This document shows positions 47,782 through 51,623 of a DNA stretch of 64,000 nt, piece by piece (positions within the stretch are counted from its first letter, which is position 1; each line of letters starts with the position of its first letter). The notes under the pieces were generated by a model. That model did no database searches. It was not told the origin of the DNA and saw only the letters and a list, made by a program, of their open reading frames with translations. Origin of the DNA: Oscillospiraceae bacterium (lineage in GTDB: Bacteria; Bacillota; Clostridia; Oscillospirales; Ruminococcaceae); contig JBGVGI010000003.1 of NCBI GenBank assembly GCA_045121595.1, positions 63,610 through 127,609 on the forward strand, given 5' to 3'. The translations under genes and the position numbers were made by a program.

Positions 47782-48627
47782 TTACACGCCTGAATATGCA
47801 GAAAATCCGCCGTCAACGGGCAAAACAACGCCTGTGATAAAGGATGCCGCATCGTTGTTCAAAAGGAAAAGCAAACTGCCTTCGAGCTCTTTTGCGTCAC
47901 CAAATCTTCCCATAGGAGTTGCAGCTAAAATTTTCTTTGTTCTGGGAGTCGGAGTTTTATCGTCGTTAAAAAGAAGCTTTTCATTCTGTTTTGTAACGAA
48001 AAATCCGGGGGCAATCGCATTAACTCTGATACCCACTTTGGAAAAATGAACTGCAAGCCACTGTGTGAAGTTGGAAATTGCAGCCTTAGCACCCGAGTAA
48101 GCAGGGATTTTCGTAAGAGGAGTGTAAGCGTTCATACTTGAAATATTGATGATGTTACATCCACTTCTTCCCACCATCTGTTTTGCAAAGCTCTGAGTGG
48201 GAATAAGTGTACCGAGGAAATTTAAGTTGAAAACAAAGCCGACGCCCTCACTGTCGAGGTCAAAAAAGCTTTTTGTATCGGCATCAACGTCACCAAGCTC
48301 AAAATATTCCTTGTCGGTTGTAGCTTTGGGGTTGTTGCCCCCTGCCCCGTTTATAAGGATATCGCAGTCACCGAAATCCTTTTTAACTTCGTTTGCAACC
48401 TTTTCGCAGATTGCTTTATCCAGTACGTTACACGCATAAGCCTTGGAAACAAAGCCTTCTTTATTGATTTCATCCGAAACTTTTTTTGCAGAGTCAAAAT
48501 CAAGGTCTAAAAGTGCAACCTTTGCCCCTGCTTTTGCAAGTACCTTTGCAAAACCTGAGCAAAGCACTCCACCTGCACCCGTTACGACTGCAACCTTGCC
48601 TTCAAGGTTAGTATTCAAAACGTTCAT
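47782..48627 (-). CDS. uxuB: SDR-type D-mannonate oxidoreductase (fructuronate reductase)
   Basis: TGAGGVLC, NGAGGN.PKATT, SMNAYTPLTKIPAYSGAKAA; directly after uxuA. Confidence 0.85.
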   Translation of the reverse strand: MNVLNTNLEGKVAVVTGAGGVLCSGFAKVLAKAGAKVALLDLDFDSAKKVSDEINKEGFVSKAYACNVLDKAICEKVANEVKKDFGDCDILINGAGGNNPKATTDKEYFELGDVDADTKSFFDLDSEGVGFVFNLNFLGTLIPTQSFAKQMVGRSGCNIINISSMNAYTPLTKIPAYSGAKAAISNFTQWLAVHFSKVGIRVNAIAPGFFVTKQNEKLLFNDDKTPTPRTKKILAATPMGRFGDAKELEGSLLFLLNNDAASFITGVVLPVDGGFSAYSGV

Positions 48628-48628
48628 T

Positions 48629-49678
48629 TTATTCTCCTTTTGCTTTTTCACAAGCTTCAAAAAGTCCGTTTATGTAAGCCGCACCCAAAGCTCTGTCGTA
48701 AAGTCCGTAACCGGGTTTACCCGTTTCGCCCCAGATCATTCTGCCGTGGTCGGGACGAACGTAGCCGTCAAAGTTGTTATCAACGAGTGCTTTTACGATT
48801 TTATACATATCAAGGCTTCCGTTTTTGGAAAGATGTCCTCTTTCTTCAAAACTGCCGTCGGGGAAAAGCTCTACCTGACGGATATGCATAAATGCAATTC
48901 TGTCCATCTTTGCATATTTTTCGACGAGTTTTTCCACGTTGTTAAAACAAGCACAACCGAGTGAGCCTGTGCAGAGGCAAAGGGAGTTCGCAGGAGAATC
49001 CACAACCGAAAGCAGTCTGTCGAGATTTGCTTCGTTTGTAACAATTCTCGGAATTCCGAAGATAGAGTATGGCGGGTCATCGGGGTGAATTGCCATTCTC
49101 ACGTCGCACTCTTCTGCAACGGGGATAATCTTTTTAAGGAAGTATTCAAGGTTTTCCCAGAGTCCTTCCTCACCAATCTTTGAATAAGCGTTGATAAGAC
49201 CGCGTACCTCGTCCTGAGTATAACTTGCATCCCAACCGGGGAGATTGATATCGTCAGTGAGAGGGTCTAAGCCTTCAAGCTGACTTTTATACATAACAAG
49301 GCTTGTAGAGCCATCGGGAAGCTCCTTATCAAGCTGAGTACGGGTCCAGTCGAAAACGGGCATAAAGTTATAGGTGATGCATTTAACGCCGTATTTTGCA
49401 CAGCGGCGGATGTTTTCACAGTAAACTTCAATAAGCTCGTCGCGGTTTTCAGAACCAAGCTTTATATCCTCGGGAACAGGTACCGACTCAACGATATCAA
49501 AAAGCATACCGTTTGCTTCAACCTGATTTTTCATTTTGAGAAGGCTTTCTTCAGGCCATACTTCGCCCGGTTTTACGTCGTAAACGGCACTTACAACCGA
49601 ACGCATATTGGGAATCTGTCTTATGTACTCTAAGGTTACGGGGTCGGATTCTCCGTACCAGCGGAATGACATTTTCAT
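48629..49678 (-). CDS. uxuA: Mannonate dehydratase
   Basis: FRWYG, YNFMPVFDW, AIHPDDPP, RPDHGRMIWGE, YGLYDRALG. Confidence 0.97.
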   Translation of the reverse strand: MKMSFRWYGESDPVTLEYIRQIPNMRSVVSAVYDVKPGEVWPEESLLKMKNQVEANGMLFDIVESVPVPEDIKLGSENRDELIEVYCENIRRCAKYGVKCITYNFMPVFDWTRTQLDKELPDGSTSLVMYKSQLEGLDPLTDDINLPGWDASYTQDEVRGLINAYSKIGEEGLWENLEYFLKKIIPVAEECDVRMAIHPDDPPYSIFGIPRIVTNEANLDRLLSVVDSPANSLCLCTGSLGCACFNNVEKLVEKYAKMDRIAFMHIRQVELFPDGSFEERGHLSKNGSLDMYKIVKALVDNNFDGYVRPDHGRMIWGETGKPGYGLYDRALGAAYINGLFEACEKAKGE

Positions 49679-50859
49679 AGGTTTTCTCCTTCAAACACGG
49701 TTTTACCCGCTACAATAGTATATTTAACGTTGATATCATCGTCAAAGATAACAAAGTCGGCAAAGTAACCTTTTTTGATTTCACCCATTTTTTCTTCTTT
49801 CATAATGGATGCGGGAACTTTGGTTGCCATCTTGACTGCATCAACGATGGGAGCTTCAGCTAATTTTACCATATTTCTTACCACTCTGTCCATTGTGGCG
49901 ATACTTCCTGCAAACGCAGTGCGGTCGGGAAGCTTTGCAACGTTGTCCTCGATAATGGTATCACTTCCGCCGTTGGGAGCTTTTACGATAGTTCCTTCGG
50001 GGTAGTCACACGCCGCCGAACGGATAGAGTCGGTGATAAGAGCAATTTTATCCACGGGTTTAAGCTTATAGATAAACTGTAGAAGTTCTTTGGGCAAATG
50101 GCATCCGTCACCGATAATTTCGATAGTCAGATCGTCATAAAGAAATGCCGCATCGTTAAGACCTGCATAGCGGAACGCATTCTTTCTCATAACGGGAGTT
50201 GTACAGGAATAAAGGTGAGTGATATGGGTAAAGCCGTATTTAATTGCTTCCTTTGCACCGATACAGTCAACCTCGGTATGACCCATAGCCGCCAAAATTC
50301 CGTTTTCCGAAAGTGCTTTTGCAAAATCATAAGCACCCTCGAGTTCGGGAGCCGCCGACCATCTGCTCAAGATATCTTTATATTTATCGATAATCTGCAT
50401 ATATTCTTTGGGGTCGGGGTTACGAACGTATCTGGGGTCCTGAGCACCACGCTGTGACATCGCAAAATAAGGTCCCTCAAGGTGAAGCCCCATAAGTCTT
50501 GCGCCGTTATGACTTTCATTCATAACGTTTTTATACGCTTCACAGCTACCGACGATTTCCTCAAAGCTACCCGAGCTTACAGTAGGATAAAGTGCAGTCG
50601 TACCGTGTTGTGCGTGAAGCACTGCAGGAGTTATAAAAGCTTCCTTTGTGCCGTCAATGAACTCAAAACCGCCACCGCCGTGGGTGTGAATATCAATAAA
50701 ACCTGCAGAAAGGTAGTTACCTTTTGCATCAATCACTTCGTCACAAGGCAAGTCCTTGTCGGTGATTTCGGTGATAACGCCGTCTTCAAAGTAAACGCTT
50801 TCGCCCGTTTTAATTTCGTCACCAAGAACGATTTTTGCATTTGTAATTTTAGTAATCAT
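49675..50859 (-). CDS. nagA: N-acetylglucosamine-6-phosphate deacetylase-like amidohydrolase
   Basis: DIHTHG, HLEGP, GH, THLY, LITDS; substrate may be non-canonical. Confidence 0.85.
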   Translation of the reverse strand: MITKITNAKIVLGDEIKTGESVYFEDGVITEITDKDLPCDEVIDAKGNYLSAGFIDIHTHGGGGFEFIDGTKEAFITPAVLHAQHGTTALYPTVSSGSFEEIVGSCEAYKNVMNESHNGARLMGLHLEGPYFAMSQRGAQDPRYVRNPDPKEYMQIIDKYKDILSRWSAAPELEGAYDFAKALSENGILAAMGHTEVDCIGAKEAIKYGFTHITHLYSCTTPVMRKNAFRYAGLNDAAFLYDDLTIEIIGDGCHLPKELLQFIYKLKPVDKIALITDSIRSAACDYPEGTIVKAPNGGSDTIIEDNVAKLPDRTAFAGSIATMDRVVRNMVKLAEAPIVDAVKMATKVPASIMKEEKMGEIKKGYFADFVIFDDDINVKYTIVAGKTVFEGENL

Positions 50860-51623
50860 ATAAGTTTACCGCTTTCGTTGTCACAGTAGATAATAACACT
50901 GCTGTGATTTTTCATAATTGTTGCGGGACATTCTTCGGAAACGTCCATCATAACGGTATTTTTAACAGCCTCTGCCTTTGTTTTTGCAGGAACCATACAG
51001 AAAAGGTGGTTACCCTTAAACAAAGTCGGAACTGTCAAAGTGAGTGCAAACTTCGGCACGTCATCGATTTTTGCAAAACAACCGTCATTAACTTGCTGGT
51101 TACGGCATTTTTCGTCAAGCTCAACTTCCTTGATGATTTTTGTATCGTTAAAATCAGCAACACCGGGGTCGTTGAAAGCGATATGACCGTTTTCACCGAT
51201 ACCAAGACAAACGATATCAACGTTTACGTCGATAAGTTTGCCGTAACGCTCACATTCTGCCTCAATGTCAGTTGCGCAACTGTCAATAAGGTTAACGGAT
51301 TTAAAAGGCACTTTATCGAAAATATCCTTTTTAAGGAAGTTTCCGAACGCCTGAGGTGCACCCTCGGGAAGACCTATATATTCGTCCATATGAAATGCGT
51401 TGATTCTTGTCCAGTCGATATCTTTAAAAAGGATAAGCTCAGCCAAAGTATCAGACTGGGACGGAGCCGCCGCAAAAATCATATTGATTTCCTCTTTTTC
51501 GTTTAAAAGTTTCACGATTTTATCAGCAATATCCTTTGCTGCAGAAGCCGCCATGCTTCTTCTTGAATCGTAAACTCTTACTTCCGCCTTACCTGCGGTA
51601 ATATTTTTAATAACTGCCATCAT
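50856..51623 (-). CDS. nagB: Glucosamine-6-phosphate deaminase-like protein
   Basis: HMDEY and LGIGENGHIAFNDP, but AAAPSQ replaces the usual ATGSSP/PTGGTP loop. Confidence 0.8.
   Translation of the reverse strand: MMAVIKNITAGKAEVRVYDSRRSMAASAAKDIADKIVKLLNEKEEINMIFAAAPSQSDTLAELILFKDIDWTRINAFHMDEYIGLPEGAPQAFGNFLKKDIFDKVPFKSVNLIDSCATDIEAECERYGKLIDVNVDIVCLGIGENGHIAFNDPGVADFNDTKIIKEVELDEKCRNQQVNDGCFAKIDDVPKFALTLTVPTLFKGNHLFCMVPAKTKAEAVKNTVMMDVSEECPATIMKNHSSVIIYCDNESGKLI

What the first reader, a model, noticed from the sequence alone, without database searches (positions are those of the whole stretch)
47782..51623. nagB-nagA-uxuA-uxuB without uxaC: candidate N-acetylhexosaminuronate catabolic pathway
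Seen: nagB/nagA and nagA/uxuA overlap by 4 nt and uxuA/uxuB are 1 nt apart, so they form one coupled unit. No uxaC, sugar kinase or PTS lies nearby. Established: UxaC converts glucuronate to fructuronate, UxuB reduces fructuronate to mannonate, UxuA dehydrates mannonate to KDG, and NagA/NagB deacetylate then isomerise-deaminate a C2 amino-aldose to the 2-ketose. Inference: NagA+NagB acting on GlcNAcA or ManNAcA (2-acetamido-uronic acids of bacterial capsules, ECA and O-antigens) would give exactly D-fructuronate, replacing UxaC. I know of no described pathway of this form.
Basis: partly seen in the sequence, partly recalled or inferred. Interest (0 to 1): 0.82.

Follow-up and report, generated by a model that had tools for sequence, protein, structure and literature searches.

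The report
Divergent nagBA operon with appended uxuAB
A gut Clostridia genome carries a nine-gene sugar-breakdown operon in which unusual versions of the two amino-sugar enzymes NagA and NagB are fused to the last two enzymes of the uronic-acid pathway; this could be an undescribed route for eating amino-uronic acids from microbial cell walls, but sequence evidence alone cannot yet separate that from two ordinary pathways sharing one promoter.

Summary
The gene order, strand, 4-nt ATGA overlaps (nagB/nagA, nagA/uxuA) and the 1-nt uxuA/uxuB gap are real. The unit is larger than reported: nine genes from one promoter-like site (Amidohydro_2, WlbA-like 3-dehydrogenase, DegT transaminase, second Gfo oxidoreductase, AraC, NagB-like, NagA-like, UxuA, SDR-type UxuB).

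NagB/NagA belong to a very large, uncharacterised clade (about 27% identical to E. coli enzymes). It keeps the catalytic residues but has rebuilt 6-phosphate-binding segments. No kinase or PTS lay beside it in about 95 loci.

For the aminouronate idea: the first Gfo enzyme's closest solved relatives are UDP-GlcNAcA 3-dehydrogenases, and NagA/NagB–UxuA linkage recurs in a Clostridia MAG and in Mucilaginibacter, where UxuB, KdgK and Eda are adjacent and no UxaC is seen.

Against it: uxuAB is present only in this species (three assemblies) and absent from three relatives at about 80% identity. None of 80 nearest UxuA loci has NagA/NagB. "No uxaC nearby" is normal for this uxuAB module (14 of 17 long contigs). 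The same clade also sits in chitin-like PULs.

Verdict: a plausible, testable hypothesis (about 0.35), not established.

The parts
56881..56908 (-). Promoter-like site (TTGAAA-16-TATAAT, 11/12) in the 247-nt gap upstream of the first operon gene. A terminator-like hairpin at 56992-56965 closes the preceding MatE gene.
   Evidence: This is a consensus match only, not shown to be functional.
55853..56752 (-). Amidohydro_2-family metal hydrolase (299 aa), first gene of the operon. Possible lactonase or second deacylase; function unknown.
   Evidence: PF04909 31.3 bits. No NCBIfam or PDB match. Orthologues are in the same position in L089, L093, L094 and L057.
54841..55851 (-). Gfo/Idh/MocA oxidoreductase 'GFO1' (336 aa), a WlbA-like sugar C3-dehydrogenase/ketoreductase.
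   Evidence: Best solved relatives are 3Q2I/3Q2K at 178/175 bits over the full length; the next hit is 108 bits. The AF2 model has pLDDT 89. Foldseek top hits are the WlbA dehydrogenases of B. pertussis and C. violaceum with NADH and UDP-GlcNAcA (TM 0.89-0.90, 31-33% identity), followed by GenD2, KanD2 and glucuronide 3-dehydrogenase.
53499..54827 (-). DegT/DnrJ/EryC1-family PLP sugar aminotransferase (442 aa), the partner of GFO1.
   Evidence: PF01041 281.5 bits. Best PDB relatives are perosamine synthetase and 2-deoxy-scyllo-inosose aminotransferases; WbpE scores 140 bits. It co-occurs with GFO1 orthologues in L020 and L057.
52506..53486 (-). Second Gfo/Idh/MocA oxidoreductase 'GFO2' (326 aa); substrate unknown.
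   Evidence: Orthologues (44-52% identity) lie next to NagB/NagA-like genes in L017, L024, L032 and L057.
51632..52468 (-). AraC-family regulator (278 aa) inside the operon, 8 nt upstream of nagB.
   Evidence: PF12833, PF02311. An AraC gene accompanies the NagB-like gene in 30 of 80 species loci.
50856..51623 (-). NagB-like deaminase/isomerase (254-255 aa) of a divergent clade. Catalytic Asp and His are kept; the phosphate loop and Arg172 are replaced.
   Evidence: The AF2 model has pLDDT 92.7 and a NagB fold, TM 0.86 to B. subtilis NagB.
49675..50859 (-). NagA-like amidohydrolase/deacetylase (394 aa). Metal and catalytic residues are kept; the Arg227 loop is rebuilt with a 4-residue insertion.
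48629..49678 (-). UxuA, D-mannonate dehydratase (349 aa, short form).
   Evidence: PF03786 456.5 bits; TIGR00695 and NF003027 above cut-off.
47782..48627 (-). SDR-type D-mannonate oxidoreductase / fructuronate reductase (UxuB analogue, 281 aa).
   Evidence: NF006132 432 bits against 281. It follows UxuA directly in 34 of 62 nearest UxuA loci.
58318..59604 (-). Conserved upstream neighbour (about 429 aa, cytoplasmic, no confident family). Possibly an N-acyl amidase belonging to the same pathway.
   Evidence: Present upstream of the operon in L089, L090, L093 and L094. The L089 orthologue has only a weak Ceramidase_alk N-terminal hit, E 3.7e-4, below the cut-off.

Best explanation
This is one AraC-controlled, nine-gene catabolic operon for an unusual N-acetylated amino sugar that enters as a free, non-phosphorylated sugar. 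I think the sugar most likely carries a C6 carboxylate, that is, a 2-acetamido- or 2,3-diamino-type uronic acid from microbial envelope glycans.

Proposed flow (all steps inferred):
1. A hydrolase (Amidohydro_2 and/or the upstream 429-aa protein) removes a second acyl group or opens a lactone.
2. The DegT transaminase and the WlbA-like Gfo enzyme convert a C3 amino group through the 3-keto sugar to a 3-hydroxyl. This is the reverse of the WlbA/WlbC steps of UDP-ManNAc3NAcA biosynthesis.
3. The NagA-like enzyme removes the C2 N-acetyl group.
4. The NagB-like enzyme isomerises and deaminates the 2-amino-aldose to the 2-ketose, D-fructuronate.
5. SDR-UxuB reduces it to D-mannonate.
6. UxuA dehydrates that to 2-keto-3-deoxygluconate. 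KdgK and Eda must be encoded elsewhere.

What is shown: gene order and coupling, family membership, conservation of catalytic residues, remodelling of the phosphate-binding segments, and the synteny statistics. What is inferred: every substrate, and the direction of the C3 module.

The uxuAB pair was added to a pre-existing seven-gene module only in this species.
For: 1. nagB-nagA-uxuA-uxuB are translationally coupled. The arrangement is shared by two other assemblies of the same species, L093 and L094, at 83-95% aa identity.

2. The NagB-like clade keeps Asp72, His143 and Lys208 (E. coli numbering). It replaces T41-G42-G43-T44 with invariant F-A-A-A. At the position where B. subtilis and S. 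mutans NagB have Arg (Arg127 in S. mutans, a phosphate contact), it has Glu. It has Asp for Glu148, and it lacks Arg172 at the aligned position. It scores below all NagB equivalog cut-offs.

3. NagA-like keeps all metal and catalytic residues. It replaces the GREPG loop that carries Arg227, which I recall from the E. coli structure literature as the phosphate-binding residue, with TR..[GA][FY]R plus a 4-residue insertion. Two invariant arginines remain, which suits an anionic group placed differently from a phosphate.

4. No sugar kinase or PTS lies beside the pair in about 95 loci from Clostridia, Bacteroidota and Chloroflexota.

5. GFO1's nearest solved relatives, by a wide margin, are WlbA enzymes crystallised with UDP-GlcNAcA. 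GFO1 is adjacent to a DegT transaminase, as in the Wlb/Wbp pathway (pathway described in PMC10622841).

6. Linkage recurs elsewhere. L068 (Clostridia MAG) has AraC< TIM-barrel, NagB, NagA, UxuA, SDR. Mucilaginibacter L176 has LacI< Eda< KdgK< UxuB< | NagA> NagB> UxuA> LacI> NagP-like> GH20> SusC> SusD. On this reading that locus is a complete route from a GH20 product to pyruvate plus glyceraldehyde-3-phosphate, with nothing missing and no UxaC.

7. tblastn with E. coli UxaC finds nothing in the window, L068, L093, L094, L175 or L176.
Against: 1. uxuAB is missing from the otherwise identical operon in three relatives at about 80% NagB identity: L089, L090/L091 and L179. There nagA is followed by TrkH or GH31.

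2. Only 2 of 80 species loci of the NagB-like clade have UxuA adjacent. This is only modestly above my rough chance expectation (about 0.2-0.4, an estimate not computed with a tool).

3. None of the 80 nearest UxuA loci (54-82% identity) has NagA/NagB-like genes. UxuA-SDR is a common free-standing two-gene module.

4. UxaC is absent within 10 kb in 14 of 17 well-flanked loci, so its absence here says little.

5. No residue distinguishes UxuA-linked from unlinked NagB-like proteins, and only one, apparently non-catalytic, position does so in NagA-like. One specificity should therefore hold for the whole clade. Yet in Pedobacter, M. conchicola, P. hartonius and Ferruginibacter the pair sits in chitin-like PULs with chitobiase-type GH20, NagX-like proteins and a NagP-like permease, which points to neutral GlcNAc.

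6. Some loci hold the pair alone among housekeeping genes (L014, L041, L065).

7. NagA-like passes NCBI's NagA equivalog cut-off: 244 bits here and 301 bits in L176.

8. The AF2 model keeps a strand-loop-helix-N-terminus anion hole, and an invariant Arg lies 3 residues before the Arg172 position. Phosphate binding is therefore not excluded.

9. No acid-sugar transporter (ExuT, TRAP, GntP) is in the operon; tblastn with E. coli ExuT found nothing.

10. No paper describing such a pathway was found, so there is no precedent.
Confidence: 0.35

Rival explanations
1. Two ordinary pathways share one promoter. The NagA-like and NagB-like enzymes are a divergent but functionally canonical GlcNAc-6-P deacetylase and GlcN-6-P deaminase, with the kinase or PTS encoded elsewhere. 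The uxuA-uxuB pair is the usual fructuronate-to-KDG branch for glucuronate, fed by a UxaC encoded elsewhere. The two were joined in this species because its substrates, such as glycosaminoglycan-like or bacterial heteropolysaccharides, release HexNAc and uronic acid together.
For: - NagA-like exceeds the TIGR00221 equivalog cut-off.
- Public sources name clade members glucosamine-6-phosphate deaminase.
- The predicted fold is NagB, TM 0.86, and all catalytic residues are kept.
- It sits in chitin-like PULs with GH20, NagP-like and NagX-like genes, and sometimes alone among housekeeping genes.
- uxuAB is a mobile two-gene module that usually lacks a nearby uxaC and is absent from the nearest relatives' operons.
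Against: - The phosphate-binding loop and both arginines used by characterised NagBs are replaced, invariantly, across 71 sequences.
- NagB-like fails every NagB equivalog cut-off. It is only 20-30% identical to any solved NagB, although canonical NagBs are, to my knowledge, highly conserved across bacteria and animals.
- It has not once been found next to a kinase or PTS in about 95 loci.
- Its habitual partners are Gfo/Idh/MocA, TIM-barrel and DegT enzymes and AraC regulators, which usually handle free or nucleotide sugars.
- The Mucilaginibacter locus would lack UxaC, a uronate-releasing glycosidase and a GlcNAc kinase.
Confidence: 0.3
2. This is a non-phosphorylative pathway for neutral amino sugars. 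The clade deacetylates and deaminates free HexNAc (GlcNAc, or 3-amino derivatives after the DegT/GFO1 steps) to a free ketohexose, which a kinase elsewhere phosphorylates. On this reading uxuAB is biochemically unrelated to the upstream seven genes and merely co-transcribed.
For: - Canonical phosphate ligands are lost.
- No kinase or PTS is adjacent.
- The transporter partner in Bacteroidota is a NagP/GluP/FucP-type permease, the family I know as carrying neutral sugars.
- GH20, GH123 and DUF4838 neighbours indicate HexNAc glycans.
- Relatives run the operon without uxuAB.
Against: - Two invariant arginines remain in the NagA-like loop that contacts the C6 substituent, and an invariant Lys and Arg remain in NagB-like. 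This suggests an anionic group is still bound.
- It leaves the tight ATGA coupling of nagA to uxuA unexplained, as well as the recurrence of UxuA/UxuB/KdgK/Eda next to the pair in Mucilaginibacter and L068.
- To my knowledge no NagA- or NagB-family enzyme acting on a free sugar has been described.
Confidence: 0.2
3. D-mannonate is made inside the operon by a different route. One Gfo/Idh/MocA enzyme acts as an aldose 1-dehydrogenase and the Amidohydro_2 protein as a sugar lactonase (for example mannose to mannonolactone to mannonate), feeding UxuA directly. NagA/NagB serve a separate amino-sugar branch.
For: - To my knowledge the Amidohydro_2 family includes aldonolactonases (own knowledge; PF04909 hit).
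- Gfo/Idh/MocA enzymes include aldose 1-dehydrogenases; there are weak hits to D-xylose 1-dehydrogenase and aldose-aldose oxidoreductase.
- This would explain UxuA without UxaC.
Against: - The Amidohydro_2 and Gfo genes are present in relatives that lack uxuAB.
- UxuB would be superfluous.
- GFO1's closest relatives are C3, not C1, dehydrogenases.
- No lactonase-specific model or solved structure matches the Amidohydro_2 protein.
Confidence: 0.05

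Closest known systems
NagA/NagB GlcNAc-6-phosphate catabolism (E. coli nagBA, B. subtilis nagAB)
   Same: The two folds and chemistries, a binuclear-type amidohydrolase deacetylase and an aldose-ketose deaminase, are adjacent and co-transcribed. Catalytic residues are conserved: NagB Asp72, His143 and Lys208; NagA HxH, Glu131, His195, His216, His251 and Asp273.
   Different: - Identity to E. coli enzymes is only about 27%.
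- The phosphate loop TGGT is replaced by FAAA, Arg172 is not conserved, and Glu148 is Asp.
- The NagA GREPG loop is rebuilt.
- NagB equivalog cut-offs are not met.
- No kinase or PTS is ever linked.
- The partners are Gfo/Idh/MocA, TIM-barrel and DegT enzymes.
Ashwell hexuronate pathway (UxaC-UxuB-UxuA-KdgK-Eda)
   Same: Bona fide UxuA and SDR-type D-mannonate oxidoreductase are adjacent, as in many Firmicutes and Bacteroidota.
   Different: UxaC, KdgK, Eda and a hexuronate transporter are absent from the 64-kb window. The pair is fused downstream of nagA instead.
Wbp/Wlb biosynthesis of UDP-2,3-diacetamido-2,3-dideoxy-D-mannuronic acid (WbpB/WlbA 3-dehydrogenase plus WbpE/WlbC aminotransferase; PMC10622841)
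   Same: An adjacent Gfo/Idh/MocA C3-dehydrogenase and DegT-family aminotransferase. GFO1's best solved relatives are WlbA with UDP-GlcNAcA.
   Different: - Identity is only 31-33%.
- The operon has no 6-dehydrogenase, N-acetyltransferase, 2-epimerase or glycosyltransferases.
- The context is catabolic (AraC, NagA/NagB, UxuAB), so the module would run in reverse on a free sugar.
- The DegT protein is closer to perosamine synthetase and scyllo-inosose aminotransferases than to WbpE.
Oxidised-chitin pathway GlcNAc1A -> OngB deacetylase -> GlcN1A -> OngC deaminase -> KDG (PMC9537276, PMC12017989)
   Same: The same logic: a non-phosphorylated N-acetyl-amino sugar acid is deacetylated and deaminated, and enters the KDG/Entner-Doudoroff branch.
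   Different: That pathway handles an aldonic (C1) acid, not a uronic (C6) acid. OngB is related to amino-acid deacetylases, not NagA (abstract of PMC12017989). There is no NagB-type isomerase and no UxuA/UxuB.
AgaA/AgaI/AgaS GalNAc/GalN-6-phosphate pathway (PMC3668189)
   Same: A paralogous NagA/NagB-like pair dedicated to another amino sugar. NagB-like gives a weak AgaI hit, 71.5 bits against 271.
   Different: It has no tagatose-6-P kinase or aldolase and no PTS. The score is far below the AgaI cut-off.

Membership tests
NagB (glucosamine-6-phosphate deaminase, EC 3.5.99.6) | NagB/Pgl alpha-beta fold | tested here: met
   The AF2 model has pLDDT 92.7. Foldseek gives TM 0.86, rmsd 1.7 A to B. 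subtilis NagB 2BKV; all top hits are NagBs.
NagB (glucosamine-6-phosphate deaminase, EC 3.5.99.6) | Catalytic Asp72 (DEY motif) and His143 (GH motif) | tested here: met
   HMDEY and GIGENGH are invariant in 71 clade members.
NagB (glucosamine-6-phosphate deaminase, EC 3.5.99.6) | 6-phosphate site: Gly-rich loop T41-G42-G43-T44, Arg172 (lid), Lys208; in S. mutans Ser37/Thr38, Arg127, Arg159, Lys194 | tested here: not met
   The loop is F-A-A-A-P-S-Q (invariant). The Arg127 position is Glu. The Arg172 position is Q/V, although an invariant Arg lies 3 residues earlier. Only Lys208 is kept.
NagB (glucosamine-6-phosphate deaminase, EC 3.5.99.6) | Score above curated equivalog cut-off | tested here: not met
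   TIGR00502 135.4 against 236.9; NF001682 137 against 528; AgaI NF007291 71.5 against 271.
NagB (glucosamine-6-phosphate deaminase, EC 3.5.99.6) | Activity on GlcN-6-P | not testable with these tools
   An enzyme assay is needed.
NagA (GlcNAc-6-phosphate deacetylase, EC 3.5.1.25) | Amidohydrolase metal and catalytic residues (HxH, Glu131, His195, His216, His251, Asp273) | tested here: met
   All are invariant in 61 clade members.
NagA (GlcNAc-6-phosphate deacetylase, EC 3.5.1.25) | Phosphate-binding Arg227 in the GREPG loop from the neighbouring subunit (role recalled from the E. coli structure literature, not verified here) | tested here: inconclusive
   The loop is replaced by [IV]TR..[GA][FY]R..G with a 4-residue insertion. 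Two invariant arginines are present but shifted.
NagA (GlcNAc-6-phosphate deacetylase, EC 3.5.1.25) | Score above curated equivalog cut-off | tested here: met
   TIGR00221 244.2 against 225.65, a marginal pass. The E. coli-type model NF008371 scores 180.5 against 483 and is not met.
UxuA (D-mannonate dehydratase) | Score above curated cut-offs over the full length | tested here: met
   PF03786 456.5 against 23.7; NF003027 458.7 against 191; TIGR00695 359.6 against 199.55.
SDR-type D-mannonate oxidoreductase (UxuB analogue, PRK08277) | Score above the subfamily cut-off, and position directly after uxuA | tested here: met
   NF006132 432 against 281. The same pair order occurs in 34 of 62 nearest UxuA loci.
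Ashwell hexuronate pathway | Uronate isomerase UxaC supplies fructuronate | tested here: not met
   There is no UxaC in the 64-kb window or in L093, L094, L068, L175 or L176 by tblastn with E. coli UxaC. The rest of the genome could not be searched.
Ashwell hexuronate pathway | KdgK and Eda complete the route | tested here: not met
   Both are absent from the window but present next to the NagA/NagB-UxuA cluster in Mucilaginibacter L176.
WlbA/WbpB (UDP-GlcNAcA 3-dehydrogenase) | Close sequence and structure similarity, and an adjacent C3 aminotransferase | tested here: inconclusive
   It is the best solved relative (178 bits against 108 for the next; TM 0.89-0.90) and is adjacent to DegT. However, identity is only 31-33%, public names are generic, and UDP- and carboxylate-contact residues could not be checked.

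The most novel reading that the evidence does not exclude
The NagA-like/NagB-like clade, tens of thousands of sequences in gut Clostridia and in Bacteroidota, is not a GlcNAc-6-P system. It would instead be the core of a non-phosphorylative route for free 2-acetamido sugars that accepts C6-carboxylated substrates. In this operon, with its WlbA-like/DegT C3 module and UxuB/UxuA, it would form the first described catabolic pathway for N-acetyl-aminouronic acids, including 2,3-diamino-uronic acids of O-antigens, capsules, teichuronic acids and archaeal or S-layer glycans. That pathway would make D-fructuronate without UxaC.
Probability: 0.3. Interest if true: 0.85.

Novelty: new variant of a known kind. 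Interest (0 to 1): 0.6.

Why it matters
Aminouronic acids (GlcNAcA, ManNAcA, GalNAcA and their 3-amino derivatives) are common in bacterial and archaeal envelopes, yet I found no published catabolic route for them. If this operon is such a route, it would fill a gap in carbon and nitrogen recycling of microbial necromass in guts and soils.

It would also show NagA/NagB chemistry substituting for uronate isomerase, and would require re-annotation of a very large protein clade now labelled glucosamine-6-phosphate deaminase/deacetylase.

Even if the uronate idea fails, one result stands. A widespread NagA/NagB clade has rebuilt phosphate sites and is habitually linked to Gfo/Idh/MocA, TIM-barrel and DegT enzymes, never to kinases. 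This marks an uncharacterised amino-sugar pathway in abundant gut Clostridia that is directly testable with four purified enzymes.

Tried and rejected
- **Literature.** Searches for aminouronate catabolism, fructuronate with NagA/NagB, and Gfo/Idh/MocA with NagA/NagB found nothing relevant. The original WlbA structure papers were not held. The identity of 3Q2I/3Q2K was confirmed instead through the Foldseek entry titles.
- **Specificity-determining residues.** I looked for positions separating UxuA-linked from unlinked NagB/NagA-like proteins. None was found in NagB, and one apparently non-catalytic position in NagA.
- **Recent foreign origin of uxuAB.** Composition shows no anomaly: GC 0.43-0.45 against 0.42 for the window.
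- **Core partners.** I tried to name the Clostridia core partners (TIM barrel 'f5' and the 357-aa Gfo) through solved structures. There was no informative match.
- **Public names for GFO1 relatives.** These are only generic ('Gfo/Idh/MocA family oxidoreductase').
- **OngB-type pathway.** Considered as the explanation for NagA-like and rejected: OngB belongs to a different family, and NagB chemistry needs a C1 aldehyde.
- **NagB-like as a 6-phosphogluconolactonase.** Rejected: the DEY and GHIAFN motifs are of NagB type, not Pgl type.
- **Downstream IlvD as a sugar-acid dehydratase.** Rejected: it passes the ilvD equivalog cut-off, 765.9 against 618.
- One cluster look-up with 10 proteins timed out. 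One Pfam batch exceeded the size limit.
- **Not possible.** I could not search the rest of this genome for uxaC, nagK or a canonical nagAB.

Full report
**1. The observation**

- NagB-like, 50856-51623
- NagA-like, 49675-50859
- UxuA, 48629-49678
- an SDR, 47782-48627

The ORF lister extends the SDR to an upstream TTG. The sequence shows GAA-TAA-A-ATG, so the real start is the ATG one base after the uxuA stop. The nagB/nagA and nagA/uxuA junctions are ATGA overlaps, and each downstream start has an AGGAG-type ribosome-binding site.

UxuA and the SDR are unambiguous. UxuA scores TIGR00695 359.6 against 199.55, and the SDR scores NF006132 'D-mannonate oxidoreductase' 432 against 281. NagA-like only just passes the NagA equivalog (244.2 against 225.65). 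NagB-like fails every NagB equivalog (135.4 against 236.9), although it has the Pfam domain.

No UxaC, kinase, PTS, KdgK or Eda is present in the whole 64-kb window.

**2. The unit is larger than reported**

Five more genes lie upstream on the same strand, with gaps of 1-37 nt:
- Amidohydro_2, 55853-56752
- a Gfo/Idh/MocA oxidoreductase (GFO1), 54841-55851
- a DegT-family aminotransferase, 53499-54827
- a second Gfo/Idh/MocA enzyme (GFO2), 52506-53486
- an AraC regulator, 51632-52468

The best promoter-like site of the region (11/12) lies in the 247-nt gap before the Amidohydro_2 gene. It follows a terminator-like hairpin after the MatE gene. I therefore treat 56752-47782 as one nine-gene operon.

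**3. What the NagB-like and NagA-like proteins are**

NagB-like has thousands of relatives at 60% identity or more, mostly from gut metagenomes. It is only 20-30% identical to any solved NagB. Its predicted structure (pLDDT 92.7) is a NagB fold, TM 0.86 to B. subtilis NagB.

Alignment to E. coli NagB, and conservation over 71 clade members, show the following:
- The catalytic Asp72 (HMDEY), His143 and Lys208 are invariant.
- The phosphate loop T41-G42-G43-T44 is an invariant F-A-A-A, followed by P-S-Q.
- Glu148 is Asp.
- Arg172 is not conserved at its aligned position. It falls within an invariant CRxQQV motif that carries an Arg three residues earlier.

In S. mutans NagB, Ser37/Thr38, Lys194, Arg127 and Arg159 hold the phosphate (PMC8369159). 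Here the Arg127 position is an invariant Glu (GIGENGH).

NagA-like keeps every metal and catalytic residue. It replaces the GREPG loop that carries Arg227, which I recall from the structural literature as the phosphate ligand, with [IV]TR..[GA][FY]R plus a 4-residue insertion. Both arginines are invariant in 61 sequences.

The C6-substituent sites of both enzymes are therefore rebuilt. An anion hole at a helix N-terminus and some basic residues remain. From sequence alone I cannot say whether the group bound is a phosphate, a carboxylate or a hydroxyl.

**4. Synteny seen from the NagB side**

I fetched eighty species-representative loci: Clostridia MAGs, Bacteroidota and one Chloroflexota. I analysed them with my own ORF calling and BLAST clustering, which gave these counts:
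- NagA-like adjacent in at least 56 of 80 loci
- Gfo/Idh/MocA genes in 39
- a short Gfo-like protein in 35
- an AP_endonuc_2 TIM barrel in 24
- AraC in 30
- a NagP/GluP-type MFS in 12 (Bacteroidota)
- UxuA in 2, DegT in 3

The typical Clostridia operon is AraC< Gfo, short-Gfo, TIM barrel, NagB, NagA. A Pfam survey of 110 further operon members found no enriched kinase or PTS family. Some loci have the pair alone among housekeeping genes (L014, L041, L065).

In Pedobacter, M. conchicola, P. hartonius and Ferruginibacter the pair lies in chitin-like PULs. These hold SusC/D, GH20 (one of chitobiase type), CBM9-like proteins, a NagP-like permease and NagX-like proteins.

**5. How conserved the uxuAB linkage is**

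Two other assemblies of the same species (L093, L094; 83-95% aa identity) have the identical nine genes. Three relatives at about 80% NagB identity (L089, L090/L091, L179) have Amidohydro_2-GFO1-DegT-GFO2-AraC-NagB-NagA and then stop. TrkH or a GH31 gene follows. uxuAB is thus a species-level addition to an older seven-gene module.

Elsewhere the linkage recurs twice:
- L068, a Clostridia MAG: AraC< TIM barrel, NagB, NagA, UxuA, SDR.
- A Mucilaginibacter clade (L086, L175, L176). L176 reads LacI< Eda< KdgK< SDR-UxuB< | NagA> NagB> UxuA> LacI> NagP-like> GH20> SusC> SusD.

UxaC is absent from all these loci.

**6. Synteny seen from the UxuA side**

The 80 nearest UxuA loci in metagenome contigs are 54-82% identical. 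None has a NagA-like or NagB-like gene. The SDR follows UxuA directly in 34 of the 62 loci that have enough downstream sequence. UxaC lies within 10 kb in 13 of 80 loci, and in only 3 of the 17 that have at least 8 kb on both sides.

So uxuA-uxuB is a common free-standing module, and 'no uxaC nearby' is its normal state. uxuAB shows no compositional sign of recent foreign origin.

**7. The upstream module**

GFO1's best solved relatives are 3Q2I and 3Q2K, at 178 and 175 bits over the full length; the next hit is 108 bits. A confident model (pLDDT 89) gives the same answer by structure. The top hits are the WlbA dehydrogenases of Bordetella pertussis and Chromobacterium violaceum in complex with NADH and UDP-GlcNAcA (TM 0.89-0.90). 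Next come GenD2 and KanD2, which are C3'' dehydrogenases that work with aminotransferases, and a glucuronide 3-dehydrogenase.

In UDP-ManNAc3NAcA biosynthesis, WbpB/WlbA oxidises C3 of UDP-GlcNAcA and a DegT-family enzyme aminates it (PMC10622841). Here the neighbour is a DegT enzyme. Its closest solved relatives include aminotransferases for free cyclitols as well as for nucleotide sugars; WbpE scores 140 bits.

In a catabolic operon this pair would most simply run backwards: a 3-amino group is removed by transamination and the 3-keto sugar is reduced. Identity to WlbA is only 31-33% and public names are generic. This is a lead and not an assignment.

A conserved 429-aa protein lies upstream (58318-59604). 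It has, at best, a faint ceramidase-like (N-acyl amidase) resemblance.

**8. Weighing the explanations**

Three readings survive:

- **(U) Uronic substrate.** The substrate carries a C6 carboxylate, and NagB-like makes D-fructuronate for UxuB and UxuA.
  - It explains the ATGA coupling, the Mucilaginibacter locus (a complete route with nothing missing), the WlbA-like/DegT pair, the rebuilt but still basic C6 sites, and the lack of kinases.
  - It is strained by the chitin-like PUL contexts, the neutral-sugar-type permease, the housekeeping contexts and the rarity of the linkage.
- **(C) Canonical enzymes.** The pair is a divergent but canonical 6-phosphate system, and uxuAB is an independent glucuronate branch with uxaC elsewhere.
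  - It fits the breadth of the clade, the PUL contexts and the NagA cut-off.
  - It is strained by the invariant loss of the phosphate signature, the total absence of linked kinases or PTS, and the habitual Gfo, TIM-barrel and DegT partners.
- **(N) Free neutral sugars.** The pair acts on free neutral HexNAc, and uxuAB is unrelated.
  - It fits the permease and the lack of kinases.
  - It leaves the conserved arginines and the uxuAB, KdgK and Eda linkages unexplained.

No residue separates UxuA-linked from unlinked NagB-like proteins, so one specificity, possibly a permissive one at C6, should apply to the whole clade.

My estimates are U 0.35, C 0.30, N 0.20, and about 0.05 for a mannonate-by-oxidation route through a Gfo enzyme and the Amidohydro_2 protein. 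The remainder is unassigned.

**9. Comparison with what is known, and novelty**

The parts are members or near-members of known families: UxuA and SDR-UxuB firmly, NagA marginally, NagB by fold and catalytic residues only. The arrangement and the clade are not described in any paper I could find.

The nearest precedent in logic is the oxidised-chitin route, GlcNAc1A to GlcN1A to KDG (PMC9537276). That route uses unrelated enzymes and an aldonic rather than a uronic acid.

I file this as a new variant of a known kind. If reading U is right, the pathway itself would be new.

**10. What would settle it**

- A whole-genome check for uxaC, kdgK, eda, nagK and a canonical nagAB in the assemblies named above.
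- Genome-wide co-occurrence profiling of the FAAAPSQ-type NagB against uxuAB and uxaC.
- A four-enzyme coupled assay (NagA-like, NagB-like, SDR-UxuB, UxuA) on GlcNAcA or ManNAcA compared with GlcNAc-6-P and GlcNAc.

Noticed in passing
L018:1786-6488 (also L009, L033, L047, L076, L082 and about 20 more loci): A widespread, apparently uncharacterised Clostridia operon: AraC< Gfo/Idh/MocA (about 357 aa), short Gfo-like (about 290 aa), AP_endonuc_2 TIM barrel (about 280 aa), NagB-like, NagA-like. No kinase or transporter is attached. The TIM barrel has no match in the PDB by sequence.
   Followed up: partly
L039:6043-15703, L061, L063: A Bacteroidales variant of the same core. It reads: hybrid LacI/AraC regulator, NagP-like MFS, NagA, NagB, short Gfo-like, PF16490 'Oxidoreduct_C' protein, ApbE flavin transferase, Gfo/Idh/MocA, and a 78-aa membrane protein. 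This looks like a membrane or periplasm-associated redox module.
   Followed up: partly
window 58318-59604 (-): A 429-aa cytoplasmic protein with no confident family is conserved just upstream of the operon in all close relatives. Its L089 orthologue has a faint neutral-ceramidase N-terminal hit (E 3.7e-4). A SASA-family esterase sits beside it in L089, L090 and L179 but not in the window, where a MatE gene intervenes.
   Followed up: partly
window 27005-33960 (-): Two adjacent AP_endonuc_2 TIM-barrel genes (27005-27769, 27774-28652) lie directly downstream of two large BspA-type leucine-rich-repeat surface proteins (28636-31185, with a weak dockerin hit; 31189-33960, with an F5/8 type C domain).
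   Followed up: no
window 636-5731: A small cluster of zinc-ADH, AraC, SDR, type-I dehydroquinase-like, SDR and a second AraC gene. It is possibly a quinate/shikimate-like or cyclitol catabolic unit.
   Followed up: no
window 59718-63185 (-): A WYL/WCX-domain regulator (60786-61832) and two small unknown ORFs lie next to a short (425 aa) AAA + Peptidase_M41 FtsH-like protein; at 425 aa it is much shorter than typical FtsH.
   Followed up: no
L034:1-11534: A Thermoanaerobacterales MAG has two NagB-like copies on opposite strands, with a PFL-like glycyl-radical enzyme (817 aa) next to one of them.
   Followed up: no
L051:5557-9864; L031, L046, L053, L178: A GH123 (beta-N-acetylgalactosaminidase family) gene and a DUF2961 gene, or DUF4838 proteins, sit immediately beside the NagB/NagA-like pair. 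This hints that some members serve GalNAc- or other HexNAc-containing glycans.
   Followed up: no
window 39199-40920 (-) and 42376-43233 (+): A GGGtGRT-family protein with a weak NifU-like neighbour, and a radical-SAM/SPASM protein. All are conserved in the same positions in the sister assemblies L093 and L094.
   Followed up: no
L004:1-20771: In a 755-kb Clostridiaceae contig the pair is split by a cupin gene. It is followed by glutamate dehydrogenase, an Amidohydro_2 protein, a GPH-family (MFS_2) transporter and a PFK. A UxaE-type tagaturonate/fructuronate epimerase lies 9 kb upstream.
   Followed up: no
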